Below, piece after piece: positions 3,895 through 19,916 of a stretch of 64,000 nucleotides of DNA. Location: the NCBI GenBank assembly GCA_039680365.1, contig JBDKTD010000020.1, positions 1,521 through 65,520 on the forward strand, given 5' to 3'. The notes under the pieces were generated by a model. That model was not told the DNA's origin. It ran no database searches and was given only the letters and a program-made list of their open reading frames with translations. Each line of letters opens with the position of its first letter. Position 1 is the stretch's first letter. Both the position numbers and the translations under genes were made by a program. This DNA comes from Clostridiaceae bacterium (GTDB lineage: Bacteria > Bacillota > Clostridia > Christensenellales > CAG-138).

Positions 3895-3922
3895 AAAAGC
3901 CCGCAACTATTTGCGGGCTTGT
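3895..3922 (-). terminator. Intrinsic terminator downstream of the GRAM-like gene
   Basis: Perfect 10-bp stem AAGCCCGCAA/TTGCGGGCTT with a 4-nt loop. On the minus strand it is followed by TTTTAC. Confidence 0.6.
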
Positions 3923-3960
3923 TCATTCCTACCTATATAATCCCTTCCGTCACCCCCGCC

Positions 3961-4269: not shown

Positions 4270-4502
4270 TTTTTTCTCAATCTCCTTTATAACGGTTTTC
4301 GATGGAATGAGCATACAAAAACGCCGTCCCAATCGGGTGGATGTTTTGTCAACTGTTGGAATCGGCGCAAAAATTTGCGCGTCTTGCGGCGAATATTTAA
4401 ACGGGAGAAGACTCTCTCCGCAGTCAAATCGAGCGGGGGGATATTACATCGAATTATTGTAGAAAATAGTAGTTTTGTTGATGAATTATCAACCATTCAA
4501 CC

Positions 4503-4531
4503 TTGTAACGCATGATAAAATGGGTTACATT
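4503..4531 (+). promoter_or_regulatory. Candidate sigma-70-type promoter for the FHA/kinase island
   Basis: TTGTAA-N17-TACATT in the AT-rich gap upstream of 4579. A weak match, and the only plausible one found by eye. Confidence 0.3.
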
Positions 4532-4578
4532 ATAGTTATTGTATATGCAAGCAACGGATTGGTTGGAAGGGGAACGCA

Positions 4579-5520
4579 ATGCGATATTGTCCGGCGTGCG
4601 GAAAGGCAAACGATGGGGCCGTTTGTGTTTTCTGCGGGAGACCGCTCAGAGGCGGCCTCCGTTCTTCGGTATGGACGGCGAGGGAATTCTGCGTCATTTC
4701 TCTTACTTTGATCGGCGCCGTCATCCTTCTTTTTACCCCGCTTATCAGTTCGCCGCTCGTCGGCTCCTATAGCTATCACGATATTGCGTTTAACCCGGCG
4801 CTCAGCGGCGACGCAATCGGTATGGCCATGGATTACTCCTCGGAGGCGGCATTTACGCTGATTGCGCTCAAAGCCGTAGGGCTGATCTTTTATGCCACCA
4901 TACTGCTCTCTCTCGTTGCACTGTTCCAAAAAATAGATAAACTGACGCAAGTATTTCGCATCATCTCATTGGGGTTGGGTGCGATTTTGATGGTTGCGCT
5001 GCTTTATATTAAAGCGGAGGCGTCGCGGAGTCTGCTCACAAGCAGCCTCGTTTCCGTTCGCTTTGGCGTTTTTCTCGGCGTTGCGTGCCTGATTGCCGCC
5101 GTTGTGCTGAGCTATCGAAGGGATGTACTCACCCGCGAGCTCTACCGCATGCCTTCCAACTCGCACGGCCCCGTCATGGCCGACCCGCCTCTGGAAAAGC
5201 GAGCGGGTGCGCTGGTCTGCACGCGCGGCACGTTTTCCGGCGCACGGTTCGACCTTTCGAAAAGTCCATCGGTCGCCATCGGTCGGGACGCGCGTTCCTG
5301 CCAGATCGTGTTTCCAAAGGACATGCCGCGCATCAGCAGAAAGCACAGTCTCGTGCGGTTCAGTTCGTCGGAGAATTGTTACTATGTTACAGATGTGTCG
5401 CGTAACGGTACTTTTCTTGCCGGCGGCGCTCGCCTGCCCGCGGGGCAGCCCTGCAAACTGGCGCGCGGAACGACGATTGCCTTCGACTCCTCCGGCGCGA
5501 ACGCGTTCTATCTGGAATAA
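4579..5520 (+). CDS. Zinc-ribbon / multi-pass membrane / C-terminal FHA domain protein
   Basis: N-terminus MRYCPACG...CVFCG (CxxC-x8-CxxC), then about 4 hydrophobic helices. The C-terminus is VAIGRDARSCQIVFP..ISRKHSLV...VSRNGTFL (FHA signatures GR, SxxH, NG). RBS GGAAGGGG. Confidence 0.85.
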   Translation: MRYCPACGKANDGAVCVFCGRPLRGGLRSSVWTAREFCVISLTLIGAVILLFTPLISSPLVGSYSYHDIAFNPALSGDAIGMAMDYSSEAAFTLIALKAVGLIFYATILLSLVALFQKIDKLTQVFRIISLGLGAILMVALLYIKAEASRSLLTSSLVSVRFGVFLGVACLIAAVVLSYRRDVLTRELYRMPSNSHGPVMADPPLEKRAGALVCTRGTFSGARFDLSKSPSVAIGRDARSCQIVFPKDMPRISRKHSLVRFSSSENCYYVTDVSRNGTFLAGGARLPAGQPCKLARGTTIAFDSSGANAFYLE

Positions 5521-5540
5521 ACGCGTTCTATCTGGAATAA
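5501..5540. repeat. Exact 20-bp tandem duplication spanning the stop codon of the 4579 gene
   Basis: ACGCGTTCTATCTGGAATAA occurs twice back to back (5501-5520 and 5521-5540). The first copy contains the TAA stop. Confidence 0.95.
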
Positions 5541-5564
5541 ACGAATTCTCTGTTTGACGCAGGT

Positions 5565-5755
5565 TTTTACAAACGCAAATAAAGGCTTATTAGAAGCTTT
5601 TATATCTAGAGAATTTTACAGATGCAAATAAAGGCTTATTAAAAGCTTTTATATCTGGAGAAGTTTACGGACGTAAATAAAGGCTTATTAAAAGCTTCTT
5701 TATCCGGTACAGTTACTGCAGACGCAAATAAAAGCTCATAAAAGCTTCTATTGTT
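5565..5755. repeat. Four tandem copies of a roughly 49-bp AT-rich repeat in the intergenic gap
   Basis: The core GCAAATAAAGGCTTATTA(A/G)AAGCTTTTATATCT recurs with GCAAAT/GTAAAT at 5575, 5624, 5673 and 5724 (periods 49, 49, 51). The fourth copy is degenerate. Each unit has a 10-bp hairpin (ATAAAGGCTT/AAGCTTTTAT with one G-U) and an AAAAGCTTTT palindrome. Confidence 0.9.
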
Positions 5756-5807
5756 GATAAATGTTGATAAAGAATCCATACATCTATATGAATCAGGGGG
5801 TAAACTC

Positions 5808-6410
5808 ATGAACATGCAGCGTTGTCCCAGCGGACACTACTTCGACAAGTCAAAGTTTGACCCGTGCCCATACTGCAATCCGGCGACGAGTTCGGACAAC
5901 CGTACGATTCCGCTGGACAGCACGACGGCGGGAACCGTGGATCCCAGCTTTGGCGGCGGATGGAACAACTCTTCCGCAGCCGACGACATCGGCGTTACCG
6001 TGCCGCTGCAGTCCGGCAGCGAGGTGACCATCGCGCTCACGCCCAAGGACGAAACAGGCAAGACGTTGGATCCCGTGGTCGGCTGGTTTGTCTGTGTGGA
6101 TGGTCCTGACAAAGGGTCGGACTTCCGCATCCGCAGCGGCAACAACTCGATTGGCCGCGGAACGGGCGCGCAAATTCGCATCCAGAACGACAGCTCGATT
6201 TCCAAGGATAACATGTCCCATGTGGCGTTCGACAATCGCTCTCGCCGGTTCTACTTTGAAGCGGGCGAGGGCAGAAACTTAATCCGCGTTAACGACGAAC
6301 TTCTGCTGCCGCACCAGTCGCGCGAACTGCGCGCGTTCGACCGCGTGCTGCTGGGGCAGACCACTCTGGCGTTTATTCCGCTTTGCGGAGAGGAGTTTTC
6401 TTGGGAATGA
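5808..6410 (+). CDS. Zinc-ribbon + FHA domain protein (soluble)
   Basis: Start at MNMQRCPSGHYF..CPYCN, preceded by an AGGGGG RBS; the TTG at 5751 was rejected. The C-terminal FHA reads FRIRSGNNSIGRG..IRIQNDSSIS...HVAF...LIRVND. Confidence 0.8.
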   Translation: MNMQRCPSGHYFDKSKFDPCPYCNPATSSDNRTIPLDSTTAGTVDPSFGGGWNNSSAADDIGVTVPLQSGSEVTIALTPKDETGKTLDPVVGWFVCVDGPDKGSDFRIRSGNNSIGRGTGAQIRIQNDSSISKDNMSHVAFDNRSRRFYFEAGEGRNLIRVNDELLLPHQSRELRAFDRVLLGQTTLAFIPLCGEEFSWE

Positions 6411-7549
6411 TCGAATACGGAACTGTATTTTTGAACCAAGCGCCGTTTGTAAGCGACAACGCGACCCCGGACGCCGGGTTTCAAACGAATCCCGGTTTCA
6501 GCGCGACGTCGCCTTCGGCTGCGGCCAACACGACGCCTGGCGCCAACACGACGCCGGCCGCCGGATCGACGCCAAACCCAACGCCTCTGGCAGGCACGCT
6601 TGTCGCGTCTTCCGTCAATCCGGAAGGAACGCCGCTGCCAACCGTTACCGACGGCGGGCAGAAGGATTTGATTCTCGGGCTGTTTATTGCCGTTGCCGCG
6701 CTGGCTTGCGCTACTGTGCTGCTGGCGCGCGCGGCGATACGTCTGAAACGCAAGCAGCGTAAGCGCATCCCCGCTCACGGCGCGGCGCAGAAGGCCAGCG
6801 GGCTGGAAGTGGGTAACGCGCACCATATTGGCAAGCGCGGCAATCAGGAAGACTCCTTTGCCATCTCCGATTTGACCGACGGCAAGCTCTGCCGCCACGC
6901 GGGCGTGCTGGCGGTTGTTGCGGACGGCATGGGCGGGCTTGCGGACGGCGAACTCGTCAGCGGCGGCGTCACTTCTTCCGTGATGCGGGAATTCCCGTCT
7001 CTGCCGGAATCCTGGTCGATGCCGCAGAAGCTTTTATACCTGGTGGAAAAAGCCAACGAAGCGGGCAACGCCGTGACCGGCGGGGTCAAGAGCCACGGCG
7101 GATCGACCATGCTTCTGACGCTGATTCAGGATGGCAGCCTCTGGTTTGCCAGCGTGGGCGACAGCCGCATCTGCCTTGTGCGCGGCGGCGGTGTCGTTCA
7201 ACTGACGCGCCCGCATACATATGAGTCCGATCTGGACAAAAAAGCCGCCTGCAATGAAATCTCCTTTGAAGCCGCTTCGGCCGATTCTCAGCGGAAAGCG
7301 CTCACGAGCTACATCGGCATGGGCGAACTCTGCTCGATCGACTACAACAACCAGCCTATTCAGCTGCTGGCGGGCGACTGGATCATTCTGATGACGGACG
7401 GCGTGTTCAACGAGCTGACCAACGCCGAAATCGCGCACGCGCTTTCGGACAACGCGCCTGCCGCCGCCGAACGAATCGAGCGAATGGTGCTCGCCAAGGG
7501 CGACCCGCATCAGGACAACCTCACGGCGGTCGTGTTACGCATCTTTTAA
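6407..7549 (+). CDS. Membrane-anchored PP2C-family Ser/Thr phosphatase
   Basis: ATGA start/stop overlap with the upstream gene. Pro/Thr/Ala-rich N-terminus, one TM helix (LILGLFIAVAALACATVLLA), then PP2C motifs GKRGNQEDSF, VADGMGG, SVGDSR, LMTDGV, DNLTAVV. Confidence 0.85.
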   Translation: MIEYGTVFLNQAPFVSDNATPDAGFQTNPGFSATSPSAAANTTPGANTTPAAGSTPNPTPLAGTLVASSVNPEGTPLPTVTDGGQKDLILGLFIAVAALACATVLLARAAIRLKRKQRKRIPAHGAAQKASGLEVGNAHHIGKRGNQEDSFAISDLTDGKLCRHAGVLAVVADGMGGLADGELVSGGVTSSVMREFPSLPESWSMPQKLLYLVEKANEAGNAVTGGVKSHGGSTMLLTLIQDGSLWFASVGDSRICLVRGGGVVQLTRPHTYESDLDKKAACNEISFEAASADSQRKALTSYIGMGELCSIDYNNQPIQLLAGDWIILMTDGVFNELTNAEIAHALSDNAPAAAERIERMVLAKGDPHQDNLTAVVLRIF

Positions 7550-7645
7550 AGCACCTTCAAACGATTCGACTCTCTTTAACAAGGGCGCGCGAATCAAAAT
7601 GAAAATAATGAAAAGGACACTGGAATCTACTAGGGAGGGAATATT

Positions 7646-8962
7646 ATGAAATCAACCAAGAAATGGGTCGCACTGATTCTGACCCTGCTGCTGGCGCTGT
7701 CGCTGACGGTTACGAGCGCCGCGGCGTCCGAAAACGCCGTTGCCGACGCGCGCAATGGCGTTGTCCGCATCGTGTTTACCTATACGCTGGATGGGGAACC
7801 GGACGGTCAAATGGGCACGGGTTTCTTCGTTGGCGAAGAAGGCAAACCCGTGGAGTATATCCTTACCAACGCGCACGTTGTTACGGTTTACGATCAGTAC
7901 ACCGGAGACGTGCTGGGTACGGCGGACGAAGTGGACGTCGTATTTGACGATTACAACGAAGATTCTACCATGACGGCAAAGGTGCTCAAAATTTTCGACA
8001 ACGGCGTCGATCTCGCGGTGCTCCGGCTGGAAGCGCCGACCACGCTGCGTCAGCCGCTCAAAATGCTCAGCGCCGACTCCGTGGATATCATGGACAAAGT
8101 TTACGCACTGGGCTTCCCGGGAATTGCGGACGATACGAGCGGTATTGTCAGTTCCAATGTTGAAGACGTCACTATTACGAGCGGCAGCGTAACCAAGGAG
8201 TCGTTCATGGAAGGCAGCGTCAACTTCCTGCAGATCGACGCCGCTATCAGCTCCGGCAATTCCGGCGGCCCGCTGGTGGACGCCAACGGCAACGTCGTCG
8301 GTATCAACACGCAGGCTACCAACCCAGACGTTGGAACCGGTCTGGGCCGCGCGCTCTATATCGACTACGCAATGGACTATTTCGATACCATGGGGTATCC
8401 CTACATGAAGGCGTCCGACAACACCGAAGTACCGGTTACGACGGACGAACTGCCCGCGCCGGAACCCGAACCCGCTCCGACGCCGAGCCTGCCATGGTAT
8501 GTCTTTGCGGCAATCGGCGTTGCCGCCGCCGCGATCATCGCGCTGGTAATCGTTCTTGCGCTCAAGAGCAAAAAGAAACAGACGAACGAATATATTGCGC
8601 CCAACCCCGAACCCGCACCGACGCCGCGGGCCTCTTCCGCGCCGTTCAAGGGCAGGCAGATTATGAATGTCGGTCAGGCCAGCTCGCTGGGCGGTAAAAC
8701 GTACCCCGTGCAGGGCAAGCTCGTCATCGGCCGCGATCCGGCCAAGTGCCAGGTTGTGTTCCCGGCAAAAACGCCGGGCATCAGCAGCGCGCACTGCTCC
8801 GTACAGGAAATTGCGCAGGGCGTCGTGGTCACCGACCTCGGCTCCTCCTATGGCACCTTCCTGGAGAACGGAACGAAACTTGAACCCAACAAGCCCTACA
8901 CCGTTCCGATTGGGGAAGCGTTCTATCTGGCTTCCAAGGACAACGGCTTCCGCGTGAAATAA
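7646..8962 (+). CDS. Secreted trypsin-like (S1C/HtrA-like) serine protease - TM helix - cytoplasmic FHA domain fusion
   Basis: Signal peptide MKSTKKWVALILTLLLALSL. Triad context TNAHVV / DLAVLRL / GNSGGPLVD. TM helix WYVFAAIGVAAAAIIALVIVLAL followed by KSKKK. C-terminal FHA LVIGRD..VVFP..ISSAHC...SSYGTFLENG. Confidence 0.85.
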   Translation: MKSTKKWVALILTLLLALSLTVTSAAASENAVADARNGVVRIVFTYTLDGEPDGQMGTGFFVGEEGKPVEYILTNAHVVTVYDQYTGDVLGTADEVDVVFDDYNEDSTMTAKVLKIFDNGVDLAVLRLEAPTTLRQPLKMLSADSVDIMDKVYALGFPGIADDTSGIVSSNVEDVTITSGSVTKESFMEGSVNFLQIDAAISSGNSGGPLVDANGNVVGINTQATNPDVGTGLGRALYIDYAMDYFDTMGYPYMKASDNTEVPVTTDELPAPEPEPAPTPSLPWYVFAAIGVAAAAIIALVIVLALKSKKKQTNEYIAPNPEPAPTPRASSAPFKGRQIMNVGQASSLGGKTYPVQGKLVIGRDPAKCQVVFPAKTPGISSAHCSVQEIAQGVVVTDLGSSYGTFLENGTKLEPNKPYTVPIGEAFYLASKDNGFRVK

Positions 8963-9008
8963 AACCGTAATGGGCGCTGAACTGCGCCCGACGCGGACGA
9001 GGTAACAG

Positions 9009-10457
9009 TTGGAGAGTTTCCAGACACACAAACTATGCTATCACTGCATGCAGAACGCCGTAGAAAACGGCGTCTGCAGGAGCTGCGGAAGCATTGCCGA
9101 AACCGTACAGTCCGTGCCGTATGCTTTGCCATGCGGCACGGTTCTGCATGGCTGCTATCTGCTCGGCACGGTGCTTGGCGCGGGCGGGTTTGGTATTACC
9201 TATATCGCGCTGCGCCTGCCGGAGGGCCGGCGGGTTGCGATTAAGGAGTATTTTCCTGTGGAGGCCGCTTTTCGCGAAACGGGGGATACGTTCGTCTGCA
9301 GCAGCGAAGTCGGCGCGGAAGCGTTTCGCCGCGGGCGTGAACAGTTTCTCAAGGAAGCGCAGACGATTTACCGCCTGCGCGGCTATCCGGGAATTGTGAG
9401 CGTTGAAAAGCTGTTTGAAGAGAACAATACGGCGTACTTCAGCATGGAATACCTCGATGGGTACGATCTCAAGCACCGCGTTGCGCAGGCGGGCGGGCGG
9501 CTGAACGCCGCGGAAACCCTGCAGACGTTCGCGCCCGTGCTGGACGCGCTGGACTACATCCACAGAAGCGGCGTCATCCACCGCGACGTCAGCCCGGACA
9601 ACATTTTTTTATGCCGGAGCGGCGGGGTCAAGCTTATCGATTTCGGCGCGGCGTACGCGCGTTCGCGGGATAACCTGCGCAATATCCAGCTCATCGTCAA
9701 ACAGGGCTACGCGCCCGTGGAACAGTACTATCAGGATGGCGACGTAGGTCCCTGGTCGGATTTGTACGCGCTGTCAAGCGCCATGTATTACTGCCTGACC
9801 GGAACGGTTCCGCCGCCCGCCCTCCAGCGGGCGCAGAAAGACGAACTGGTTTCGCCAACAAAGCTCGGCGCCGCGATCTCCGTCTCTATGGAAGCGGCAA
9901 TCCTCAAGGGGATGTCGGTGGAACGCAGCGCGCGGTTCTCCAGCGCGGCGGAGATGAAAGCGCGGCTGAGCGCCTGCGCGGGGGAGACGCGCGCCGTCTC
10001 GGGCGAAACGGCTCCCGCAAGGTCGCTTCTCTTGTTGCTCAGGCAGGGAACGGATCAGATTCGAGGCGCTTTTCAGCGTAAAACGTCCGCCGAGCGCGGC
10101 GGGAGCAGAGCGGTTGCCCCGCAGACGCAGATGGGTATTTTCTGCGCTTCCGGCGTGTACGTCGGCAACACGTTTCCGCTCACGGACGACCCGCTTCTGC
10201 TGGGACGGGATGCAAACCGCTGCGGCGTCGTCTTTCCGCCGGACGCAACCGGCGTCAGCCGCGTGCATTGCGAAATTCGCGCAAACGCCGCGGCAAAGTG
10301 CATTGTGCTGCGGGACGTCGGCTCGCGGTTCGGAACACAAATTGCCGAAGGCGCGCTGCTGCACGCGGGCGAGGAACAGACGCTGCCCGTCGGCGCGGGG
10401 TTTCTGATCGGCAAAGAATATTTTACGGTCGTGCTGGTGGAGATTGGCAAGCCCTGA
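9009..10457 (+). CDS. Zinc-ribbon Hanks-type Ser/Thr kinase with C-terminal FHA domain (soluble)
   Basis: TTG start after a GAGG RBS. CYHC...CRSCG ribbon. Kinase motifs GAGGFG, VAIKEY, HRDVSPDN, DFGAA, GYAPVEQY. FHA motifs LLLGRD..VVFP..VSRVHC...GSRFGT. Confidence 0.85.
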   Translation: MESFQTHKLCYHCMQNAVENGVCRSCGSIAETVQSVPYALPCGTVLHGCYLLGTVLGAGGFGITYIALRLPEGRRVAIKEYFPVEAAFRETGDTFVCSSEVGAEAFRRGREQFLKEAQTIYRLRGYPGIVSVEKLFEENNTAYFSMEYLDGYDLKHRVAQAGGRLNAAETLQTFAPVLDALDYIHRSGVIHRDVSPDNIFLCRSGGVKLIDFGAAYARSRDNLRNIQLIVKQGYAPVEQYYQDGDVGPWSDLYALSSAMYYCLTGTVPPPALQRAQKDELVSPTKLGAAISVSMEAAILKGMSVERSARFSSAAEMKARLSACAGETRAVSGETAPARSLLLLLRQGTDQIRGAFQRKTSAERGGSRAVAPQTQMGIFCASGVYVGNTFPLTDDPLLLGRDANRCGVVFPPDATGVSRVHCEIRANAAAKCIVLRDVGSRFGTQIAEGALLHAGEEQTLPVGAGFLIGKEYFTVVLVEIGKP

Positions 10458-10503
10458 GGCACAGGGCGATTTCACCGGGCGGCGAAAGACCAAAGGAGAC
10501 AAC

Positions 10504-11223
10504 ATGCGCTTTGATGACGCGGCATATTCCAATATCGGCGGCAGGGACGTCAATGAGGACGCAACGCTCTGCCGTCAGCAGGAAGGCGCGCTGCTCGCCG
10601 CCGTCGCGGACGGCTTAGGCGGTCACGGCGGCGGGGAGATCGCTTCTTCCACCGCGCTCCTTGCACTAAAAGCCAGCCTGCAGCGGCTGATCCCCCCGAA
10701 AGAAGACATACTCCGGACAGTCACTGCGGAGCTCAATCTGGCGGTACTGGCCAAACAAACCGAACAGTTCAAGATGAAAACAACGCTTGCCATGGCGCTG
10801 ACGGACGGGGAGACGCTTGCGTTTCTGCATGTCGGCGACAGCAGGGTTTATTATTTCCACGGCGGAGAGATCGCCTACCAGTCCACCGACCACAGCGTTT
10901 CCCAGCTTGCGGTGCTGGCAAACGAGATCACGAAAGAACAGATTCGTTTCCACGAGGACCGCAGCAGGCTGCTCCGCTCGCTGGGCAGCGAAGGAAGCGC
11001 CGCGCCGGAAATCAAGCTCGTGCCCGGCGCGCCGGTTCCGGGGGACGCGCTTTTACTGTGCACGGACGGGTTCTGGGAATACGTTCTGGAAAAAGAGATG
11101 CAAAAAGAGCTCAAGCGCACGAAGACCGCAAAGGACTGGCTGGAGCAAATGAAAAAGTATATCCGCCGCCGCGCGGGAAAAAGGAACGACAACAACTCCG
11201 CGGTCGCGGTTCGAATTGGATAA
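10504..11223 (+). CDS. PP2C-family Ser/Thr phosphatase (soluble)
   Basis: Start MRFDDAAYS after an AAAGGAG RBS. Motifs GGRDVNEDA, VADGLGGHGGGE, HVGDSR, LCTDGF, DNNSAVAV. Confidence 0.85.
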   Translation: MRFDDAAYSNIGGRDVNEDATLCRQQEGALLAAVADGLGGHGGGEIASSTALLALKASLQRLIPPKEDILRTVTAELNLAVLAKQTEQFKMKTTLAMALTDGETLAFLHVGDSRVYYFHGGEIAYQSTDHSVSQLAVLANEITKEQIRFHEDRSRLLRSLGSEGSAAPEIKLVPGAPVPGDALLLCTDGFWEYVLEKEMQKELKRTKTAKDWLEQMKKYIRRRAGKRNDNNSAVAVRIG

Positions 11224-11297
11224 TACTCCGACCGGCTTTGACCGCTGGAGCGGGCGCGCGCACACAATTGAAAAATAGACTCTCAGGAGGCAGGCTT

Positions 11298-12848
11298 ATG
11301 CGATTTCGTCAAATAAAGAGACTCTTGATGCTCGCCATGGCGCTGGTATTCGCGCTGGCGGGCATACCGTCCGCGCTTGCGCAGGACGAGGCGCAGCTGC
11401 AGATTGCGGGCGGCAACGCCAGCGGGGACGTATACCAGATCGTGTTTTACTCCAGTGCGCCGGATGCGCCCACGGCGGAAACGCTGAGCGTCCAGATTGA
11501 CGGCCAGCCCGTAGATCTCAAGAGCGTCAACCCGATTTCCTACGCCGATCCGGGCACGACGTATGTTATTCTGTTCGACACCAACACCGCCGTAACCGAG
11601 CGCGCCCTGCCGGATATGAAGAGCATTGCCGAGCGGGTTCTCGCTGGCATGGGGACGCAGGACAACGCTCTGATTGCACCGTTGGGCGGAAAAATTGCAG
11701 CTTCGGACATCACGGACGACGCGGATAAACTGAACGCCTCCATTGCGGCGCTGGCAAAGGACGAAGGCGGAACCGATCTGTACTCCACCATGTCCGACGC
11801 GCTCAAACTGCTCAACGGAACGGATGTTTCCCTGCGGCCCAGAAAGTGCCTGATCGTCATGGCGGACGGGCTGGACAGCTCATCCAGCGGCATTTCCGCG
11901 CTGGAACTTTCCAACCAGATTTCAACTTCGAACGTGCCGATCTATACGATCGCGCTGACCTACAACACAAAGACAACCGAACGTGTGGAAGCGGCAAAGA
12001 CAATCTCCGGCTTTGCGCGCCAGTCGCCCGGCGGCCTGAGCCAGATGCTCAAGACCGACGGCGTTACGGTGGAAAGCGCGGCGGACGCGATTTTGGCGCA
12101 GCATGATTTAAACTACCTTGCCGTTCTGGACAGCGCGAAAGTGCGCGCGGTTTCGCAGGGAGACAGCGCGGAAGTGGCGCTGACGTTTACCGCCGCTTCC
12201 GGCACGCTTTCCGACACGCAGGCGCTCTCGCTTGCGAACCTGCCGAAGGCGGAAGCCACGGCGCAGCCTACCGCGGAACCCGCCGCTACTGTTGCGGAAT
12301 CGCCCCAGCCGGTCATTGATAACGGCGAGGAGAAGAGCTTTTTCGGCGTTGTAAAAGAAAAACTGCTTGCGCTGCCCGTCTGGGTTCTCTTTACGGCGGG
12401 TGCGGCGGTTGTCGTCGTTATTGCGCTGATCGTTTTACTGGCGAGCCTCAGCAAGAAAAAGAAAAAGAGCAAGGCGCCCGCGCCCGGTACGGTCGTCCGC
12501 TTTGGCGCAGTTTCCGAAGAGACGCCGAGCATGTCCGGTGCGCCGGATATCTGCGTGGTGCGCCTCGGTGAAAAGGAAAAAATCTGCTGCGAAATCACCA
12601 TGCCGCTGAGCTTTGCCATCGGCAAAAATCCGAAAAACGCGCAGTTGATTCTGGCGGACGATCCGGTGATCGCTCCCGTGCAGTGCCGTCTCCTCTGGAA
12701 GGACGGCGCGGTTTGGGTGGAGGAAAAGAGTAAAAAGAGCAAAACGCTGCTCAACGGCTCACCCATCGTGCGCCCCGTCCGCCTGAATTCGGGGGACGTG
12801 CTCCAGATGGGTTCGTTCGAGTACCGCGTGTTCTGGGAACAACGCTAA
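11298..12848 (+). CDS. Secreted vWA domain - TM helix - cytoplasmic FHA-like domain protein
   Basis: Start MRFRQIKRLL after AGGAGG, with signal peptide ...PSALAQD. vWA-like core YVILFDTNTAV ... GGTDLYS ... CLIVMADGLDSSS. TM helix WVLFTAGAAVVVVIALIVLLASL followed by SKKKKKSK. The C-terminal FHA fold has altered signature residues (GK, no SxxH). Confidence 0.75.
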   Translation: MRFRQIKRLLMLAMALVFALAGIPSALAQDEAQLQIAGGNASGDVYQIVFYSSAPDAPTAETLSVQIDGQPVDLKSVNPISYADPGTTYVILFDTNTAVTERALPDMKSIAERVLAGMGTQDNALIAPLGGKIAASDITDDADKLNASIAALAKDEGGTDLYSTMSDALKLLNGTDVSLRPRKCLIVMADGLDSSSSGISALELSNQISTSNVPIYTIALTYNTKTTERVEAAKTISGFARQSPGGLSQMLKTDGVTVESAADAILAQHDLNYLAVLDSAKVRAVSQGDSAEVALTFTAASGTLSDTQALSLANLPKAEATAQPTAEPAATVAESPQPVIDNGEEKSFFGVVKEKLLALPVWVLFTAGAAVVVVIALIVLLASLSKKKKKSKAPAPGTVVRFGAVSEETPSMSGAPDICVVRLGEKEKICCEITMPLSFAIGKNPKNAQLILADDPVIAPVQCRLLWKDGAVWVEEKSKKSKTLLNGSPIVRPVRLNSGDVLQMGSFEYRVFWEQR

Positions 12849-12872: not shown

Positions 12873-15617
12873 GTGCTGAAACCGGAAGAAACATGCATGC
12901 GCTGCTTTGCGCAGCTCGCGAAGCCAAAAGGCGTCTGTCCCCAGTGCGGCTGCGACAATGCCGCGGCCTCCAACGAAGCGCACCAGCTGGAATGCGGCAG
13001 CATTCTGGCGGGTACCTACCTTATCGGCAAGGTGCTTGGACAGGGCGGGTTTGGAATTACCTACATCGGCTGGGACCTCAACCTGGATATCAAGGTTGCG
13101 ATCAAGGAATATTACCCCGAAGGGTGCGTCACGCGCGACGCGCATACGCATATTTCCGTTTTGACCTACGCGGGTCCGAAGGAAGCGTACTTTCAAAAGG
13201 GCAAGGAGCGGTTCGTCAACGAAGCCAAAGCGCTTGCCAAATTCCCAGGCGACAGCGGCGTGGTCGGCGTTCGCACGTTCTTCTACGAAAACGGGACGGC
13301 GTATATCGTAATGGACTTCGTGGAGGGCGAAACGCTCAAGGCGTACGCCCAGCGCCGGGGTGGTAAGCTGCCCGCGGCGGAAGTGCTTTCGCTGTTTCAG
13401 CCAATCTTCCGCTCGCTCGCCCGCGTGCACGACAGCGGCCTGCTGCACCGCGACATCAGCCCGGACAACCTCATGCTGAAAACGGACGGCATGCTGGCGC
13501 TGCTCGACTTTGGCGCCGCGCGTCAGATTTCCGCAGAAGGCGAACACTCCAACACAATCAACGTTAAGCACGGGTTCGCCCCGGAAGAGCAGTACCGCAC
13601 GCGCGGCGAACAGGGCCCGTGGACGGACGTTTACGCGCTTTGTGCGACGATTTACCGCCTCACTACGGGCAGAACGCCGCCGGAAGCGCTTGACCGCATG
13701 GCCGACGGAACGCTGCTCACGCCCCCCAATCAACTGGGCGCGGACTTTACGCCCGCGCAGGAAGCGGCAATTCTCCACGGTCTGGCGGTGCGCGCTTCCG
13801 ACCGGACAAGGGATGTAAGGCAACTGGAGAAGGAACTCTACGGCGGGGAAAGAACGGTTTTTGCAACGTCGCCTTTGAGCGTTTCTTATGAACCCGCCGC
13901 GCCGCAGTCGTCGTTTATCACGCAGCCGCTGACGAGAAGCGAGGAACCCGCAGCGTCGAGCGCGCCTCGGTCGTCGTTTGTCACACAGCCGCAATCTTCC
14001 TATGTCACACAGCCGCAACCGGCGAGCGTGGCACCCGTGAAAGACAGCGGGGCTTTTGCGGGAAACACTCCTGATGCGGCGCCGCTGGACGACGCAGAGC
14101 GGCAGGAAGAAAAACGCAAAAAGGGTAAAAAAGCTCGCACGATTGCTACGTCTATCGCTTTTGCAGTTTTGCTGATTATGACGTTGTTTGCATTTACCGG
14201 CATAGGTGGGTTTCTTCTGATCGGCTTACTCATTCTGGATGCTATCGGGCTGTTCTGGCTTTTGCTGCACAAGGGTGTACTCAAAAACGTAGATCATTCA
14301 GGAAAGATTGAGAAAGCCGCTTCGTTGATCACGTTATCCGGCGGCGCGTTGTCGCTTGCGCTGATCCTCGCGGGAGTTATCGCCGCCCTGAGCGCTCCTT
14401 CCGGTCCGGCGTCGGCACAAGCCGCCACGGAACCGCCGGCTTCCGCTGAACAGCCCGCCGCCACGCTCGACCCGACAATCGTCATTGACTGGCAGGATCC
14501 CACCATCGAGGCGGGAATTCGCAGCGCCATCGGCAAGAGCGAAGGGGAAGCGATCACGACGGGAGACGTGGCGTACATCTACAGCCTTAAAATAGCGGGT
14601 GATACGCTCTATATCAACGACGATTCTGTTTGGCCGTATGTTAATACATATGACAACACCTACTCGGTGGACAACGGGCAGACCTCGCTGCCGATTTCCG
14701 ACCAGACAATTTCGCTTGCAGACTTGGTAAACTTCGGCGGCTTAACAGTGCTGAATGTGTATGCGGTCAACGTATCCGGTTTGGAGTCGCTGAACGACTG
14801 CATTAGTTTGAATACGGTTTGGCTGGATGCCTGCGGCAATGTCGACCTGAATGAGTTTTCCAGTTGCGATCAATTATACGAACTTTCTATTTCTGACTGC
14901 GACGAGGTTGTGCTGACGGGCGCAGGAGAAAAGCTTTTTATCGGCAGTCTCTCGCTGAGCAACTGCGGTACGGTTGACGCTGGGGAACTCGCGCAGTTTA
15001 CCAACTTGAGTTCGCTGAGTATTTGGGCCGCTCCCCTGTCTTCCGCTGAACAAATCGGCAGCATGACGAACCTGACGAGTCTTGCAATGGGGTATAACGG
15101 TGTTTCGAATCTCGACTTTCTGCGGAATCTAGCGAATTTGTCTTCTTTATCGCTGAGCGGAGAAGAGATTACGGAACTTCCTTCGCTGGACGCGCTGACG
15201 GAGCTGACATTGCTTCATCTGACGTTCTGCACGCTGGACGATTCCGATCTGCAGCAGATTGCTTCTCATACCGCACTTACAGAGCTGATGCTCGACGGAT
15301 GCCCGTTTTCGGATTTGTCGTTTGTTGAAAATCTAGCCAATTTAGTTGTTATCTCATTTGACAGTTCGGAAGTTCGGGATATTACTCCTTTGAAGAATCT
15401 GACAAAGCTGGAGACGCTCTGGCTTATGTATATTGACGTAAACGATATCAGCGCGCTGAAGAACTGTAAGAGCCTGAAACGCGTTTACATAGTGAGCACA
15501 CGGGTTTCGAACTATTCTCCGCTGGAAGGGCTGCCTATCGAGTATATCAGCGTTGATGCTGCGTACACGGATCAAGTTCGCTCGATCCTGCCCAACGCGA
15601 TCGTTGATTCCTGGTAA
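12873..15617 (+). CDS. Zinc-ribbon Ser/Thr receptor kinase with extracellular leucine-rich-repeat domain
   Basis: GTG start after AGGAG. CMRC..CPQCG ribbon. Kinase motifs GQGGFG, VAIKEY, HRDISPDN, DFGAA, APEEQY. Two TM helices around residues 425-470 and one near 495. The C-terminal 330 aa or so carry internalin-like LRRs (..LTNLSSLSL.., DISALKNCKSLKRVYI). Confidence 0.85.
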   Translation: MLKPEETCMRCFAQLAKPKGVCPQCGCDNAAASNEAHQLECGSILAGTYLIGKVLGQGGFGITYIGWDLNLDIKVAIKEYYPEGCVTRDAHTHISVLTYAGPKEAYFQKGKERFVNEAKALAKFPGDSGVVGVRTFFYENGTAYIVMDFVEGETLKAYAQRRGGKLPAAEVLSLFQPIFRSLARVHDSGLLHRDISPDNLMLKTDGMLALLDFGAARQISAEGEHSNTINVKHGFAPEEQYRTRGEQGPWTDVYALCATIYRLTTGRTPPEALDRMADGTLLTPPNQLGADFTPAQEAAILHGLAVRASDRTRDVRQLEKELYGGERTVFATSPLSVSYEPAAPQSSFITQPLTRSEEPAASSAPRSSFVTQPQSSYVTQPQPASVAPVKDSGAFAGNTPDAAPLDDAERQEEKRKKGKKARTIATSIAFAVLLIMTLFAFTGIGGFLLIGLLILDAIGLFWLLLHKGVLKNVDHSGKIEKAASLITLSGGALSLALILAGVIAALSAPSGPASAQAATEPPASAEQPAATLDPTIVIDWQDPTIEAGIRSAIGKSEGEAITTGDVAYIYSLKIAGDTLYINDDSVWPYVNTYDNTYSVDNGQTSLPISDQTISLADLVNFGGLTVLNVYAVNVSGLESLNDCISLNTVWLDACGNVDLNEFSSCDQLYELSISDCDEVVLTGAGEKLFIGSLSLSNCGTVDAGELAQFTNLSSLSIWAAPLSSAEQIGSMTNLTSLAMGYNGVSNLDFLRNLANLSSLSLSGEEITELPSLDALTELTLLHLTFCTLDDSDLQQIASHTALTELMLDGCPFSDLSFVENLANLVVISFDSSEVRDITPLKNLTKLETLWLMYIDVNDISALKNCKSLKRVYIVSTRVSNYSPLEGLPIEYISVDAAYTDQVRSILPNAIVDSW

Positions 15618-15721
15618 ATCGCCTTCAACCGTCCGACATTGATGGAAGAAGCGGAATATGCTCGCTATTGCTTGAGGGATAACGCGCTGATAGCGTGAGG
15701 GAACCGCCAAGGGGGTTAAAC

Positions 15722-17830
15722 ATGAATCCGGAACTCATCTGCATGCACTGCATGGCGCAGCTGGAAGAACCCAAAGGAGTTTGCCCGGTCTGCGGGTTCG
15801 ATAACGCGTCCGCGGAAAATGCGCCCAACCAGCTGGAATGCGGGAGCATTCTCGCGGGGACGTATCTAATCGGCTGCGTGCTGGGTCAGGGCGGGTTCGG
15901 AATCACCTATATCGGGCTCGACCTCAACCTGAATCTCAAGGTAGCGATCAAGGAGTTCTACCCGGAGGGTTGCGTCACCCGCGACGGGCGGACGCATACC
16001 TCCGTTGTTCCGCTGCCCGGCGAAAAGAAGGCCTTCTTCGAAAAAGGCAGGGAAAAGTTCGTCAGCGAGGCGCAGATTCTGGCGAGGTTTACCGACGAGC
16101 CGTCCATTGTAGGGGTGCGCGGCTTCTTCCACGAAAACGGCACCGCGTACATCGTGATGAACTTTGTGGAGGGCGAAACGCTGAAAGCCCGTGCTCTTAG
16201 AAACGGCGGCAGGCTTCCATCTGCGGAAGTGCTTGAACTGATGAAACCGCTTTGCGCTTCCCTTTCACGCGTGCACGAAGCGGGGCTGCTGCACCGGGAT
16301 ATCAGCCCGGATAACATCATCGTCAAAAAGAACGGCATGCCGGTTCTGCTCGATTTTGGCGCGGCGCGGCAGATTTCCATGACAGGCGAGCACTCCAACA
16401 CTATCAACGTTAAGCACGGGTTCGCGCCGGAGGAGCAGTACCGCACGCACGGCGAGCAGGGGCCGTGGACGGACGTCTACGCGCTTTGCGCAACCATCTA
16501 CCGCCTTACCACGGGCGTTACTCCGCCGCAGGCGCTGGACCGGCTGACAAGCGACGTTCCGATTACCCTGCCGAACCGGCTGGGCGCGGACTTTACCCCC
16601 GCGCAGGAAGCGGCGGTCATGCACGGGCTAGCCGTGCGTTCGAAGGATCGAATCTCCAGCATGGATCAGCTGCTCGGCGAACTTTCGCGCACCGCGGTCA
16701 AGCCATCCAAGCCGCCCAAGCCACCCGAGCCGCCGATCCCTGCGAGACCCAAGTTCCTGTTGCCGGTGCTGATTGGCTGCGGTGCGGTAGCGCTGACACT
16801 GCTGCTGATACTGGTGCTCAAACCTTCCGGTCAAACGGGCGGCGGGGACGGCGCGGCGCAAGCCGCGTTCAGCGCCCAGCAGTCGGCCAAAGCGAATGCG
16901 CCGGAGGCGACAACTGCGCCGCAGGTTACATCCGAACCGACGCTCGCTCCCGAATCGACCGAGGAGCAGGGAAACCGCTTTCAGGTCGGCCAGGTGTACG
17001 ACGGTTTGCTTGCGGCGGGATCGCACTATTCGGCGGTGCTCAATTCCGATGGAACCGTCTCCGTTTATGGCGGCGGCGAGAGCGCGATTGAAGCCTCGTC
17101 CTGGACGAATGTTGCCCAGCTTTCCGGCTACGGCGATCTGCTGGCGGGGCTTCGCTCCGACGGAACAGTGGTTGTGACGGGCACCGACGCGCAGTATCTG
17201 GATATCGGCGTGATTGAAGGCTGGACGGACATCGTTCAAGTTGAAGTCGGTTATCACGGCCTGCTTGCGCTCACGCGGGATGGATACGTCCTGTATACCG
17301 GCAACATCAACACGGGAGAACAGGATTACGGCAGAAGCGACTGCGTCGATTGGTATGGCGTAAAGAAGCTGATCAAGGGCGACGAGCACATGGTTGCCAT
17401 CAACGCCGACGGCACGATGGACTCGGCCGGAATGGATAACGTGAACCAGTGCGCGGTGAGCGGCTTTAGCAGCGTCATCGATGCGGCCACCGGCTGCCAG
17501 TGCACGTACATCCTGCATGCAGACGGCACGGTGGACGTCATTGGCGGCAACCCAAAATACGACTTTGGCCAGTTTGACGCCGCTGATTGGACGGATATTA
17601 TCGCCATTGAATGTGGCGACCGGTTTGTGATAGGCTTAAAGAGCGACGGAACCGTTGTTGCCGCAGGCGACAATGAATACGGCCAGAAAAACGTTCGAAC
17701 CTGGCAGAATATCGTTGCCATCTATGCGGGAACCCGCAATGCTTATTCTTTGGACGTCAACGGCGAGCTCTACTGCACCGACTACAACAGCGGCGGACAG
17801 AAAGAAATCGACGGCACGTTTATTGACTGA
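15722..17830 (+). CDS. Zinc-ribbon Ser/Thr receptor kinase with extracellular RCC1-like beta-propeller
   Basis: Start MNPELICMHC after GGGGG. The kinase half is a close paralog of 12873. One TM helix (FLLPVLIGCGAVALTLLLILVL). The ectodomain has periodic DGTV...G...W..I..I..G blades and GDNEYGQ, typical of RCC1 repeats. Confidence 0.85.
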   Translation: MNPELICMHCMAQLEEPKGVCPVCGFDNASAENAPNQLECGSILAGTYLIGCVLGQGGFGITYIGLDLNLNLKVAIKEFYPEGCVTRDGRTHTSVVPLPGEKKAFFEKGREKFVSEAQILARFTDEPSIVGVRGFFHENGTAYIVMNFVEGETLKARALRNGGRLPSAEVLELMKPLCASLSRVHEAGLLHRDISPDNIIVKKNGMPVLLDFGAARQISMTGEHSNTINVKHGFAPEEQYRTHGEQGPWTDVYALCATIYRLTTGVTPPQALDRLTSDVPITLPNRLGADFTPAQEAAVMHGLAVRSKDRISSMDQLLGELSRTAVKPSKPPKPPEPPIPARPKFLLPVLIGCGAVALTLLLILVLKPSGQTGGGDGAAQAAFSAQQSAKANAPEATTAPQVTSEPTLAPESTEEQGNRFQVGQVYDGLLAAGSHYSAVLNSDGTVSVYGGGESAIEASSWTNVAQLSGYGDLLAGLRSDGTVVVTGTDAQYLDIGVIEGWTDIVQVEVGYHGLLALTRDGYVLYTGNINTGEQDYGRSDCVDWYGVKKLIKGDEHMVAINADGTMDSAGMDNVNQCAVSGFSSVIDAATGCQCTYILHADGTVDVIGGNPKYDFGQFDAADWTDIIAIECGDRFVIGLKSDGTVVAAGDNEYGQKNVRTWQNIVAIYAGTRNAYSLDVNGELYCTDYNSGGQKEIDGTFID

Positions 17831-19857: not shown

Positions 19858-19875
19858 TTGACGGGTAATAAACAG

Positions 19876-19916
19876 CGACCCCTTTGCCGTAGGCAAAGGG
19901 GTCGTTTTGTGTTTTT
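19876..19916. terminator. Strong bidirectional intrinsic terminator between the kinase island and lysR
   Basis: 13-bp perfect stem CGACCCCTTTGCC/GGCAAAGGGGTCG with a 3-nt loop, followed by TTTTGTGTTTTT. Confidence 0.85.

What the first reader, a model, noticed from the sequence alone, without database searches (positions are those of the whole stretch)
7646..8962. Extracellular S1 protease fused through a TM helix to a cytoplasmic FHA domain
The protein has a cleavable-looking signal peptide and a complete His/Asp/Ser triad context (TNAHVV, DLAVLRL, GNSGGPL). A single TM helix is followed by a KSKKK stop-transfer, then an FHA domain with canonical GR / SxxH / G-T-F-L-x-NG residues. That topology implies an outside protease whose localisation, clustering or activity can be read or controlled by intracellular phosphothreonine marks. 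I do not recognise this combination from characterised proteases; HtrA-type enzymes use PDZ domains instead.
Basis: partly seen in the sequence, partly recalled or inferred. Interest (0 to 1): 0.6.

Follow-up and report, generated by a model that had tools for sequence, protein, structure and literature searches.

The report
Surface protease tethered to phosphothreonine reader
This gene encodes a membrane protein with an active-looking HtrA-type serine protease outside the cell and a phosphothreonine-binding FHA domain inside; it is a core, conserved but uncharacterised part of a large kinase/phosphatase signalling operon of uncultured gut and sediment Clostridia.

Summary
Window 7646-8962 (+) encodes a 438-aa protein. 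[quoted passage not shown]

Across 299 full-length relatives, the triad, the FHA Gly-Arg/Ser/His residues and the positive-inside TM are almost invariant. The architecture is not rare: 150 to about 2,000 clusters at 50% identity, every named source a Clostridia MAG. It carries only generic names, and I found no paper describing it.

The gene sits in a 15-kb operon (4579-19857) with four other FHA proteins, two PP2C phosphatases and four zinc-ribbon Ser/Thr kinases, three of them with LRR, RCC1 or unknown ectodomains. The core order, small FHA / TM-PP2C / protease-TM-FHA, persists down to 35% identity. There a PrsW-protease-FHA fusion with the most similar FHA usually follows.

A recurrent T-x-P-L motif in the small FHA protein and in kinase juxtamembrane repeats is a candidate docking site.

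The most likely mechanism is phosphothreonine-dependent recruitment or clustering of an ecto-protease. The substrate is unknown. I rate it a new variant of a known kind, of moderate to high interest.

The parts
7634..7638 (+). Shine-Dalgarno (GGAGG), 7 nt upstream of the ATG
   Evidence: Read directly from the sequence.
7646..8962 (+). Gene D: signal peptide, S1C-like protease, TM helix and FHA domain; 438 aa
   Evidence: ORF. Pfam Trypsin_2 plus FHA. A 100% identical protein is in a Clostridia MAG, and there are more than 300 full-length relatives.
7646..7726 (+). Signal peptide, residues 1-27 (MKSTKK, a hydrophobic core, then AAA|SE)
   Evidence: Hydropathy and charge analysis. An N-terminal hydrophobic segment is present in 287 of 299 relatives. 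Cleavage itself is inferred.
7736..8395 (+). Extracytoplasmic S1C/HtrA-like protease domain, residues 31-250. Catalytic codons: H77 at 7874-7876, D122 at 8009-8011, S206 at 8261-8263.
   Evidence: Pfam. Sequence match to HtrA/Deg/DegQ/DegP structures. Foldseek best hits are DegS-deltaPDZ, DegQ, DegP and HtrA1, E about 1e-13, TM-score about 0.75 normalised to the target. Triad conserved in 296-298 of 299 relatives.
8396..8491 (+). Pro/Glu/Thr-rich extracytoplasmic stalk, residues 251-282; no PDZ domain
   Evidence: pLDDT below 50 for residues 259-278. Length and sequence vary in the alignment.
8492..8563 (+). Single transmembrane helix, residues 283-306
   Evidence: Kyte-Doolittle peak of 3.02. 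Model helix at 284-307. K/R count is 0 before and 4 after.
8564..8653 (+). Cytoplasmic KSKKK stop-transfer and disordered linker, residues 307-336
   Evidence: pLDDT below 50 for residues 308-332.
8654..8959 (+). Cytoplasmic FHA domain, residues 337-438 (G362, R363, S380, H383; SSYGT loop)
   Evidence: Pfam FHA, 42.2 bits. Key residues are invariant. The domain aligns to the NIPP1 FHA. Its closest paralogue is the FHA of PrsW-FHA fusions, at up to 45% identity.
4579..5520 (+). Gene A: zinc ribbon, 4 TM helices and an FHA domain
   Evidence: Pfam FHA, 2.8e-11. CxxC...CxxC motif and TM segments.
5808..6410 (+). Gene B: small zinc-ribbon protein with a divergent FHA domain. Its linker carries conserved T-x-P-L motifs (NRTIPLD, GVTVPL).
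   Evidence: Pfam. Alignment of orthologues and motif counts.
6407..7549 (+). Gene C: extracytoplasmic low-complexity N-tail, TM helix and PP2C phosphatase. An ATGA overlap joins it to the stop codon of B; the longest ORF starts at TTG 6383.
   Evidence: Pfam PP2C_2. TM with 8 K/R after it. Overlap read from the sequence. Always immediately upstream of D in the 10 operon-bearing related loci (the stand-alone P0083 locus L013 has no such gene).
9009..10457 (+). Gene E: soluble zinc-ribbon Ser/Thr kinase with an FHA domain
   Evidence: Pfam Pkinase 5.5e-28 and FHA 4.3e-7. No TM segment.
10504..11223 (+). Gene F: soluble PP2C phosphatase
   Evidence: Pfam and NCBIfam Stp1-like, 144.7 bits.
11298..12848 (+). 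Gene G: signal peptide, VWA-like ectodomain, TM helix and a degenerate FHA domain. It has the same topology as D.
   Evidence: Pfam FHA 6.3e-9 and a weak VWA_2 hit. Orthologues hit PF00092 VWA. TM and charge analysis.
12873..15617 (+). Gene H: zinc-ribbon receptor kinase with an LRR ectodomain. Its juxtamembrane region carries three SS[FY][IV]TQP repeats.
15695..17830 (+). Gene I: zinc-ribbon receptor kinase with an RCC1 beta-propeller ectodomain
17911..19857 (+). Gene J: zinc-ribbon receptor kinase with an ectodomain that has no Pfam match
19874..19906 (+). Strong bidirectional intrinsic terminator that closes the operon
   Evidence: A 15-bp stem with 9 G-C pairs followed by a T-run.

Best explanation
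Gene D encodes a type-I membrane protein. An HtrA-like (S1C-type) serine protease that looks catalytically competent faces the outside of the cell. A single helix with disordered linkers on both sides tethers it to a cytoplasmic FHA domain that keeps the phosphothreonine-binding residues. It is a core component of a conserved Clostridial operon in which receptor Ser/Thr kinases write phosphothreonine marks and two PP2C phosphatases erase them.

The proposed mechanism has four steps:
1. An extracellular cue activates one of the zinc-ribbon receptor kinases (LRR, RCC1-propeller or other ectodomain).
2. The kinases phosphorylate Thr in short linear motifs. The best candidates are T-x-P-L in the linker of the small FHA protein B and in the kinases' own juxtamembrane repeats.
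3. The FHA tail of D docks on these marks. In relatives, so does the closely related FHA of a PrsW-protease fusion. The ecto-protease is thereby recruited and concentrated next to the active receptor complex, where it cleaves an extracytoplasmic substrate.
4. The membrane PP2C (C) and the soluble PP2C (F) reset the system.

Shown: the domains, the conserved catalytic and pThr-binding residues, the sequence-based topology, and the operon with its conservation. Inferred: which way information flows, docking on T-x-P-L, clustering as the mode of control, and the substrate.
For: Domains and triad.

Topology: (289 of 299 relatives have a TM segment after the protease; K/R 0.75 before it and 3.97 after).

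Disordered linkers on both sides of the helix argue for tethering rather than rigid coupling.

Operon in the window: five FHA proteins, two PP2C phosphatases and four kinases, all on one strand with short gaps or overlaps, closed by one strong terminator.

Conserved order: B, C, D, (PrsW-FHA), STK-FHA, PP2C, VWA-TM-FHA, flanked by receptor kinases, in 10 of 11 related loci at 35-93% identity.

Shared reader: the FHA of D is the nearest relative of the FHA fused to PrsW proteases (up to 45% identity, shared SSYGTF). Both proteases therefore probably read the same kind of mark.

Candidate docking motif: T-x-P-L occurs 36 times against 11.8 expected across the cluster proteins. Fifteen of these are in B (expected about 0.4), at a conserved position in 10 of 11 orthologues. 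Others lie in kinase juxtamembrane segments and in the cytoplasmic linker of two D orthologues.

Sensors versus core: kinase ectodomains differ between relatives (LRR, BspA-LRR, RCC1, LRP1-like propeller, none) while the kinase domains and D stay conserved.
Against: Nothing has been measured: not protease activity, FHA binding, phosphorylation or topology.

The canonical loop Asn of FHA domains is Tyr here, so peptide specificity, or even pThr binding, could be atypical.

The T-x-P-L enrichment was noticed first and tested afterwards. Some hits are structural (G-x-x-F-P-L in the first FHA strand), and related sequences inflate the counts.

One relative (P0083, with two FHA domains) stands alone without neighbouring kinases.

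No substrate can be named.

The topology rests on hydropathy and charge rules, not on a trained predictor.
Confidence: 0.6

Rival explanations
1. Regulated proteolysis within the module. The ecto-protease acts as a site-1-type protease on the operon's own membrane proteins. Candidates are the roughly 90-residue low-complexity extracellular tail of the membrane PP2C (C), the VWA ectodomain of G, or the kinase sensor domains. PrsW-FHA would be a second protease of the same kind. Cleavage would release or destroy a signalling component, giving feedback or an irreversible switch.
For: The closest structural matches include DegS. By established knowledge, DegS is the site-1 protease for the anti-sigma factor RseA. 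PrsW, fused to the most similar FHA domain in relatives, is the site-1 protease for RsiW in Bacillus subtilis. Gene C always lies directly upstream of D and has an uncharged extracytoplasmic tail ahead of a strongly positive-inside TM helix. G has the same topology as D.
Against: The operon contains no sigma or anti-sigma factor and no site-2 protease. No cleavage site is known. The window itself lacks PrsW. This rival overlaps with the best explanation; it differs only in the substrate.
Confidence: 0.22
2. Housekeeping envelope quality control. D is simply this lineage's membrane-anchored HtrA-like protease that degrades misfolded secreted proteins. The FHA tail only lets Ser/Thr signalling tune its abundance or position.
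For: The protease domain is most similar to HtrA, DegP and DegQ. Gram-positive HtrA enzymes are membrane-anchored (review abstract listed).
Against: There is no PDZ domain, which is typical of HtrA. Scores fall far below the HtrA family cut-offs (94 bits against 416). The anchor is C-terminal to the protease rather than N-terminal. The gene is strictly embedded between a PP2C and kinase/FHA genes across distant relatives, which is unexpected for a general chaperone-protease.
Confidence: 0.1
3. Non-catalytic scaffold. The protease fold serves as an extracellular binding module, and the protein only helps to assemble a transmembrane FHA-based complex, in the manner of the FHA-TM-periplasmic ring proteins of type III secretion.
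For: There are weak Pfam hits to Yop-YscD_cpl (20.7 bits, below the 33.2 cut-off) for D and its neighbours. One relative (P0079) has Arg in place of the catalytic His.
Against: His, Asp, Ser and the GNSGGP oxyanion motif are conserved in 296-299 of 299 relatives. That pattern is expected of an active enzyme, not a pseudo-enzyme.
Confidence: 0.04

Closest known systems
DegS / HtrA family (MEROPS S1C) membrane-anchored envelope proteases
   Same: Same protease fold, catalytic triad and GNSGGP motif. DegS-deltaPDZ, DegQ, DegP and HtrA1 are the best structural matches. The protease is tethered to the cytoplasmic membrane with the catalytic domain outside.
   Different: There is no PDZ domain. The anchor is C-terminal rather than N-terminal. 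The regulatory or targeting domain is a cytoplasmic FHA rather than an extracytoplasmic PDZ. Scores are far below the family cut-offs.
MarP (Rv3671c) of Mycobacterium tuberculosis, a membrane-tethered periplasmic S1 protease
   Same: An S1 protease domain without PDZ, held at the membrane. From my own knowledge, it processes a specific envelope enzyme (RipA) rather than acting in bulk quality control.
   Different: MarP has four N-terminal TM helices and no FHA domain. The NCBIfam MarP model scores 61 bits against a cut-off of 250.
PrsW site-1 protease (Bacillus subtilis sigma-W pathway)
   Same: In relatives, a PrsW-family membrane protease sits next to D and is fused to the same FHA subtype. 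FHA-tethered envelope proteases are thus a recurring theme of this operon.
   Different: It is a different protease class. PrsW is not present in this window, and canonical PrsW has no FHA domain.
Esr threat-sensing pathway of Actinomycetes (bioRxiv 2026, PMC13622651)
   Same: The logic is the same: diversified surface sensors (beta-propellers), a vWA protein, a kinase/phosphatase pair and an FHA-domain output protein with many alternative fused domains.
   Different: Esr needs a MoxR ATPase and a separate filamentous sensor, and it is effectively confined to Actinomycetes. Here there is no MoxR, the sensors are fused to the kinases, the vWA protein is itself TM-anchored and FHA-fused, and the host is a Clostridium. 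Esr outputs described in the main text are cytoplasmic (transcription, EccC); no protease output is mentioned there, and its supplementary list of 13 FHA domain configurations could not be read.
Actinobacterial fhaA-fhaB-pstP-rodA-pbpA-pknA-pknB operon
   Same: The operon grammar is similar (from my own knowledge): two FHA proteins, a membrane PP2C, enzymes acting outside the membrane, then kinases. There are weak FhaB/FipA-model hits to A, D and E.
   Different: There are no RodA or PbpA genes. The envelope enzyme here is a protease and is itself fused to FHA. All scores are below cut-off (19.8-37 bits against 125).
FHA-FHA-Trypsin protein of Bacteroides thetaiotaomicron (NP_811686.1), listed in a 2008 survey (PMC2605481)
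   Same: It shows that trypsin and FHA domains co-occur in one bacterial polypeptide. It too is uncharacterised.
   Different: The domain order is the opposite, with two N-terminal FHA domains. The survey found a single instance. No TM-separated topology or operon context was reported.

Membership tests
HtrA/DegP/DegS (S1C; NCBIfam TIGR02037) | Chymotrypsin-fold protease domain with a His-Asp-Ser triad | tested here: met
   Pfam Trypsin_2 at 83 bits. Triad aligned to Deg1/Deg8. Foldseek hits to DegS, DegQ and DegP at E about 1e-13. Conserved in 296-298 of 299 relatives.
HtrA/DegP/DegS (S1C; NCBIfam TIGR02037) | At least one C-terminal PDZ domain | tested here: not met
   No PDZ hit in Pfam. 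After residue 250 the model shows only a disordered stalk, one helix and the FHA domain.
HtrA/DegP/DegS (S1C; NCBIfam TIGR02037) | Whole-protein score above the curated cut-off | tested here: not met
   94.4 bits against 416.2. All HtrA, DegS, DegQ and DegP equivalog models also fall far below their cut-offs.
HtrA/DegP/DegS (S1C; NCBIfam TIGR02037) | Trimeric (or higher) assembly | not testable with these tools
   Only a single-chain model could be made.
FHA domain (PF00498) | Score above the Pfam gathering threshold, with a beta-sandwich fold | tested here: met
   42.2 bits against 20.7. The beta-rich domain at 337-437 has block-mean pLDDT of 72-96, with most blocks above 83.
FHA domain (PF00498) | Phosphothreonine-contacting Gly-Arg and Ser-x-x-His residues | tested here: met
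   G362 in 299 of 299, R363 in 296, S380 in 299, H383 in 299.
FHA domain (PF00498) | Conserved Asn in the S-x-N-G-T loop | tested here: not met
   Tyr in 265 of 299 and Asn in only 11. NIPP1 FHA has His at the aligned position.
FHA domain (PF00498) | Binding of phosphothreonine peptides | not testable with these tools
   Needs binding assays.
MarP family protease (NF033740) | Score above cut-off and four N-terminal TM helices | tested here: not met
   61.4 bits against 250. There is one signal peptide and one C-proximal TM helix.
FhaB/FipA (NF049868) | Score above cut-off | tested here: not met
   19.8 bits against 125.
Esr threat-sensing pathway (PMC13622651) | MoxR AAA+ ATPase in the cluster | tested here: not met
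   No AAA or MoxR hit in any operon protein.
Esr threat-sensing pathway (PMC13622651) | vWA protein, kinase/phosphatase pair and FHA output protein | tested here: met
   G (VWA-like), E/H/I/J (kinases), C/F (PP2C) and A/B/D (FHA). The architectures differ from those of Esr.
Esr threat-sensing pathway (PMC13622651) | Host in the class Actinomycetes | tested here: not met
   All named sources are Clostridia MAGs: Christensenellaceae, Feifaniaceae, Oscillospiraceae and 'Clostridiaceae'.
Type VI secretion threonine-phosphorylation pathway (PpkA/PppA/Fha1) | TagH/Fha1 model above cut-off and T6SS structural genes nearby | tested here: not met
   TIGR03354 scores 34 and 26 bits against 120 for A and G only. 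The neighbouring genes that were scanned (window up to 23738) include no secretion-apparatus genes.

The most novel reading that the evidence does not exclude
The operon is a Clostridial surface-sensing (threat- or contact-sensing) system that works inside-out. Interchangeable receptor kinases with fast-diversifying LRR and beta-propeller ectodomains detect foreign cells, phage or host ligands. Through T-x-P-L phosphothreonine marks they then deploy two FHA-tethered proteases on the cell surface as effectors: the S1 ecto-protease D and, in relatives, PrsW. It would be a Firmicute counterpart of the actinobacterial Esr pathway, with a proteolytic rather than a transcriptional or secretory output.
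Probability: 0.2. Interest if true: 0.8.

Novelty: new variant of a known kind. Interest (0 to 1): 0.55.

Why it matters
Bacterial Ser/Thr kinase signalling is usually thought to carry information inwards, and FHA proteins are usually cytoplasmic adaptors. Here a phosphothreonine reader is joined through the membrane to an active-looking extracellular protease. In sister operons the same reader is joined to a PrsW protease. This points to inside-out signalling, in which cytoplasmic phosphorylation decides where or when proteolysis happens on the cell surface.

The family is abundant in uncultured gut and sediment Clostridia (Christensenellales, Oscillospirales), whose surface biology is almost unknown. 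The operon also pairs a conserved core with swappable sensor ectodomains, a pattern typical of systems that face changing biotic ligands.

The T-x-P-L motifs provide concrete peptides for testing. The idea can therefore be checked with a handful of recombinant domains.

Tried and rejected
- **Foldseek against afdb50.** I wanted named organisms with the same architecture, but the library was unavailable.
- **Cluster members.** The listing of cluster members for ten NCBI-sourced relatives returned no organism names, so I could not tell whether any cultured isolate carries the gene.
- **PADLOC defence models.** Only generic kinase, trypsin and PP2C domain hits appeared (RT-Protease_XI, LmuA, PD-T4-6, mad6). 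The FHA proteins hit no system-specific model. I rejected this as evidence for a known defence system.
- **Literature.** Seven full-text searches combined FHA with trypsin, HtrA, PrsW, vWA, PP2C or Trypsin_2. None found a paper on this architecture. The Aravind 2020 vWA-MoxR paper mentions FHA only sporadically. The bacterial kinase atlas preprint mentions no protease or zinc ribbon.
- **Is gene A a degenerate PrsW?** Only its FHA domain matches the PrsW-FHA proteins, and the window contains no PrsW, so I rejected the idea.
- **Loci L006-L009.** These hits from the genome scan are 310-aa proteins that match only the FHA tail; they are not orthologues.
- **Antisense ORF 7652-9031 (459 aa).** I treat it as a by-product of high G+C, because the + strand ORF carries the domains and has hundreds of homologues.
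- **ORF K (19907-20473).** It has no Pfam hit and starts inside the terminator, so I treat it as spurious.
Full report
**Observation**

Window 7646-8962 (+) is an intact 438-codon ORF. A GGAGG ribosome-binding site lies 7 nt before the ATG.

- Pfam finds a trypsin-like peptidase domain (Trypsin_2, residues 57-220, E 4.6e-23) and an FHA domain (residues 360-424, E 1.1e-10). Both score well above the curated cut-offs.
- The nearest solved structures by sequence are HtrA, Deg, DegQ and DegP protease domains.
- An AlphaFold2 model built from 30 relatives has mean pLDDT 82. It shows a beta-rich protease domain (31-250), a long helix (284-307) and a beta-sandwich (337-437). Only the linkers 259-278 and 308-332 are of low confidence.
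- Foldseek places the protease domain next to DegS-deltaPDZ, DegQ, DegP and HtrA1 (E about 1e-13, TM-score about 0.75 on the target).
- No PDZ domain exists.

**Topology**

No trained topology predictor was available, so I used hydropathy and the positive-inside rule.

- There are exactly two hydrophobic segments. The first (8-26) has a Lys-rich n-region before it and is followed by AAA|SE.
- The second (286-304) has no K/R in the 15 residues before it and four Lys after it.
- Of 299 full-length relatives, 287 have the N-terminal segment and 289 have a TM segment after the protease. The mean K/R count is 0.75 on the protease side and 3.97 on the FHA side.
- Whether the first segment is cleaved or stays as an anchor, the protease lies outside and the FHA inside.

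**Conservation**

- In the same 299 sequences the catalytic residues are H in 296, D in 298 and S in 298. The FHA residues are G 299, R 296, S 299 and H 299. Both domains are therefore under selection to work.
- One departure from the textbook FHA is that the loop Asn is Tyr (SSYGT) in 265 of 299. NIPP1, whose FHA aligns best among solved structures, has His at that position.

**How common it is**

- All of the best 120 hits in two word-indexed searches are relatives, and 118 and 120 of them respectively carry Trypsin_2+FHA.
- A full profile search of 1.84 billion 50%-identity representatives gave 2,282 hits at E <= 1e-30. The top 150 all score below E 1e-91 and are mostly 400-480 aa.
- Every source that gives a name calls it 'trypsin-like peptidase domain-containing protein', 'S1-C subfamily serine protease' or 'hypothetical protein'. 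Every named organism is a Clostridia MAG: Christensenellaceae, Christensenella, Feifaniaceae, Oscillospiraceae or 'Clostridiaceae'.
- The architecture is thus common but functionally unannotated.

All genes from 4579 to 19857 are on the + strand with short gaps or overlaps, and one strong terminator at 19874-19906 closes the run. The genes are:

| Gene | Coordinates | Architecture |
|---|---|---|
| A | 4579-5520 | zinc ribbon, 4 TM helices, FHA |
| B | 5808-6410 | small zinc ribbon, divergent FHA |
| C | 6407-7549 | extracytoplasmic tail, TM, PP2C |
| D | 7646-8962 | the target |
| E | 9009-10457 | zinc ribbon, kinase, FHA |
| F | 10504-11223 | PP2C |
| G | 11298-12848 | signal peptide, VWA-like domain, TM, FHA |
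| H | 12873-15617 | zinc-ribbon receptor kinase, LRR ectodomain |
| I | 15695-17830 | zinc-ribbon receptor kinase, RCC1 ectodomain |
| J | 17911-19857 | zinc-ribbon receptor kinase, unassigned ectodomain |

- The A-G order is kept in four genomes at 59-93% identity.
- In six further loci at 35-40% identity the order is: receptor kinase(s), B, C, D, (zinc ribbon)-PrsW-protease-FHA, kinase-RDD-FHA, PP2C, VWA-TM-FHA.
- Only one relative, which has two FHA domains, stands alone.
- B, C and D are adjacent in every clustered locus.
- The FHA domain of the PrsW fusions is most similar to that of D (up to 45% identity, same SSYGTF loop). Two different envelope proteases therefore carry the same reader subtype.
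- The receptor kinases keep their kinase domains (about 70% identity over the first 320-350 residues) but swap ectodomains: LRR, BspA-type LRR, RCC1 propeller, LRP1-like propeller, or none recognisable.

**A candidate mark**

- The juxtamembrane region of H contains three SS[FY][IV]TQP repeats. Its orthologue in L002 has five tandem SSFVT[PQ]P repeats, four of them ending in L.
- The related motif [KR]-T-[IV]-P-L occurs in the juxtamembrane regions of kinases in L010, L016 and L018.
- It also occurs at a fixed position just after the zinc ribbon of B in 10 of 11 orthologues, followed by one or two further T-x-[PA]-[LIV] motifs.
- It occurs as well in the cytoplasmic linker of two D orthologues.
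- Across all cluster proteins T-x-P-L occurs 36 times against 11.8 expected. B alone has 15 against about 0.4.
- A hydrophobic residue at +3 is a common FHA preference (my own knowledge). This is a lead found after looking at the data, not a tested result.

**Mechanism**

Because both linkers around the single helix are disordered, rigid transmission of a conformational signal is unlikely. The FHA tail is better read as a tether. My best explanation is therefore as follows:

1. Activated receptor kinases create phosphothreonine marks on themselves and on B.
2. The FHA tails of D (and of PrsW-FHA in relatives) dock there.
3. The ecto-protease is concentrated beside the receptor complex and cleaves an extracytoplasmic target.
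4. The PP2C phosphatases C and F reset the system.

HtrA-type proteases act as trimers (established knowledge), so clustering is a plausible activating step.

The main rival differs only in the target. In that version D acts on the operon's own membrane proteins: the extracellular tail of C, the ectodomain of G, or the sensor domains. That would be regulated proteolysis of the DegS or PrsW site-1 kind. A housekeeping HtrA role and a non-catalytic scaffold role are less likely, for the reasons given under the rival explanations.

**Comparison with known systems**

- D is not a member of the HtrA family proper. It has no PDZ and scores 94 bits against a 416-bit cut-off.
- It is not a member of the MarP family (61 against 250) or the FhaB/FipA family (19.8 against 125).
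- In logic the operon resembles the recently described actinobacterial Esr pathway: diversified surface sensors, a vWA protein, a kinase/phosphatase pair and a variable FHA output. It lacks MoxR, fuses the sensors to the kinases, and occurs in a different phylum.
- The actinobacterial fhaA-fhaB-pstP-rodA-pbpA-pknA-pknB operon shares the gene grammar but not the enzymes.
- A 2008 survey listed a single FHA-FHA-Trypsin protein in Bacteroides thetaiotaomicron without further study.
- I found no characterised protease with an FHA domain across the membrane. The paper library lacks most subscription journals.

**Verdict**

This is a new variant of known kinds (membrane-tethered S1 proteases and FHA adaptors), part of a conserved but unstudied signalling operon, and it has clear, inexpensive experiments. 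I set interest at 0.55.

Noticed in passing
window 4579-19906: A 15-kb single-strand operon with five FHA-domain proteins, two PP2C phosphatases and four Ser/Thr kinases, closed by a 15-bp-stem bidirectional terminator at 19874-19906. The core is conserved in Clostridia MAGs down to 35% identity.
   Followed up: yes
window 5808-6410 (protein B residues 33, 64 and about 75): The small zinc-ribbon/FHA protein carries conserved Thr motifs in its linker (NRTIPLD, GVTVPL, EVTIAL). The first is kept in 10 of 11 orthologues. It may be a GarA/OdhI-like phospho-switch or a multivalent docking adaptor.
   Followed up: partly
window 13900-14020 (protein H residues 345-385); L002 15230-18121: The juxtamembrane region of the LRR receptor kinase holds tandem SS[FY][IV]T[QP]P repeats. 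Their number differs between close relatives: three here and five in the 93%-identical cluster of L002.
   Followed up: partly
window 9009, 12873, 15695 and 17911 (N-termini of E, H, I, J); also A (4579) and B (5808): All four kinases begin with a CxxC...CxxC zinc ribbon directly before the kinase domain. A and B also start with zinc ribbons. This may be a shared interaction module of the system.
   Followed up: no
window 12400-12848 (FHA domain of G): The FHA domain of the VWA-TM-FHA protein lacks the canonical residues. It has Gly-Lys instead of Gly-Arg, and A-P-V-Q-C where S-x-x-H is expected. It may not bind phosphothreonine.
   Followed up: partly
L010 11360-12775; L011 11350-12732; L016 9336-10616; L017 4489-5835; L018 9434-10864: In more distant relatives the gene after D encodes a (zinc ribbon)-PrsW-protease-FHA fusion. 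Its FHA is the closest paralogue of D's FHA. The window contains no PrsW. In L005 the protein at the position of A is DUF975+FHA.
   Followed up: partly
window 6407-6410: An ATGA overlap joins the stop codon of B to the likely ATG start of the membrane PP2C gene C. A GGAGAGGAG stretch lies upstream. This suggests translational coupling.
   Followed up: partly
L010 4031-6134; L018 2031-4050; L015 1-507; L016 1-369: A histidine kinase gene is transcribed divergently just upstream of the operon in four distant relatives (accompanied by a response-regulator gene in L010 and L018; L015 and L016 show only the kinase at the locus edge). It is absent from this window. It could be a linked output, or it could be coincidence.
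   Followed up: no
window 7652-9031 (- strand): A 459-codon antisense ORF covers the whole of gene D. I treat it as a by-product of about 60% G+C, and nothing supports it.
   Followed up: partly
window 1-6000 compared with 6000-14000: G+C is 46-51% upstream and about 60% through most of the operon. The upstream region holds a DUF7402 protein (31-1212) and a 681-aa polytopic membrane protein without a Pfam match (1269-3314).
   Followed up: no
P0079 (relative, 49% identity): One family member has Arg in place of the catalytic His (TNARII) but keeps Asp and Ser. It may be an inactive variant.
   Followed up: no
window 21057-23738 and onwards: Just downstream of the operon lies an oligopeptide-type ABC transporter, with an SBP_bac_5 binding protein and a BPD_transp_1 permease. 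Relatives do not share this neighbour.
   Followed up: no
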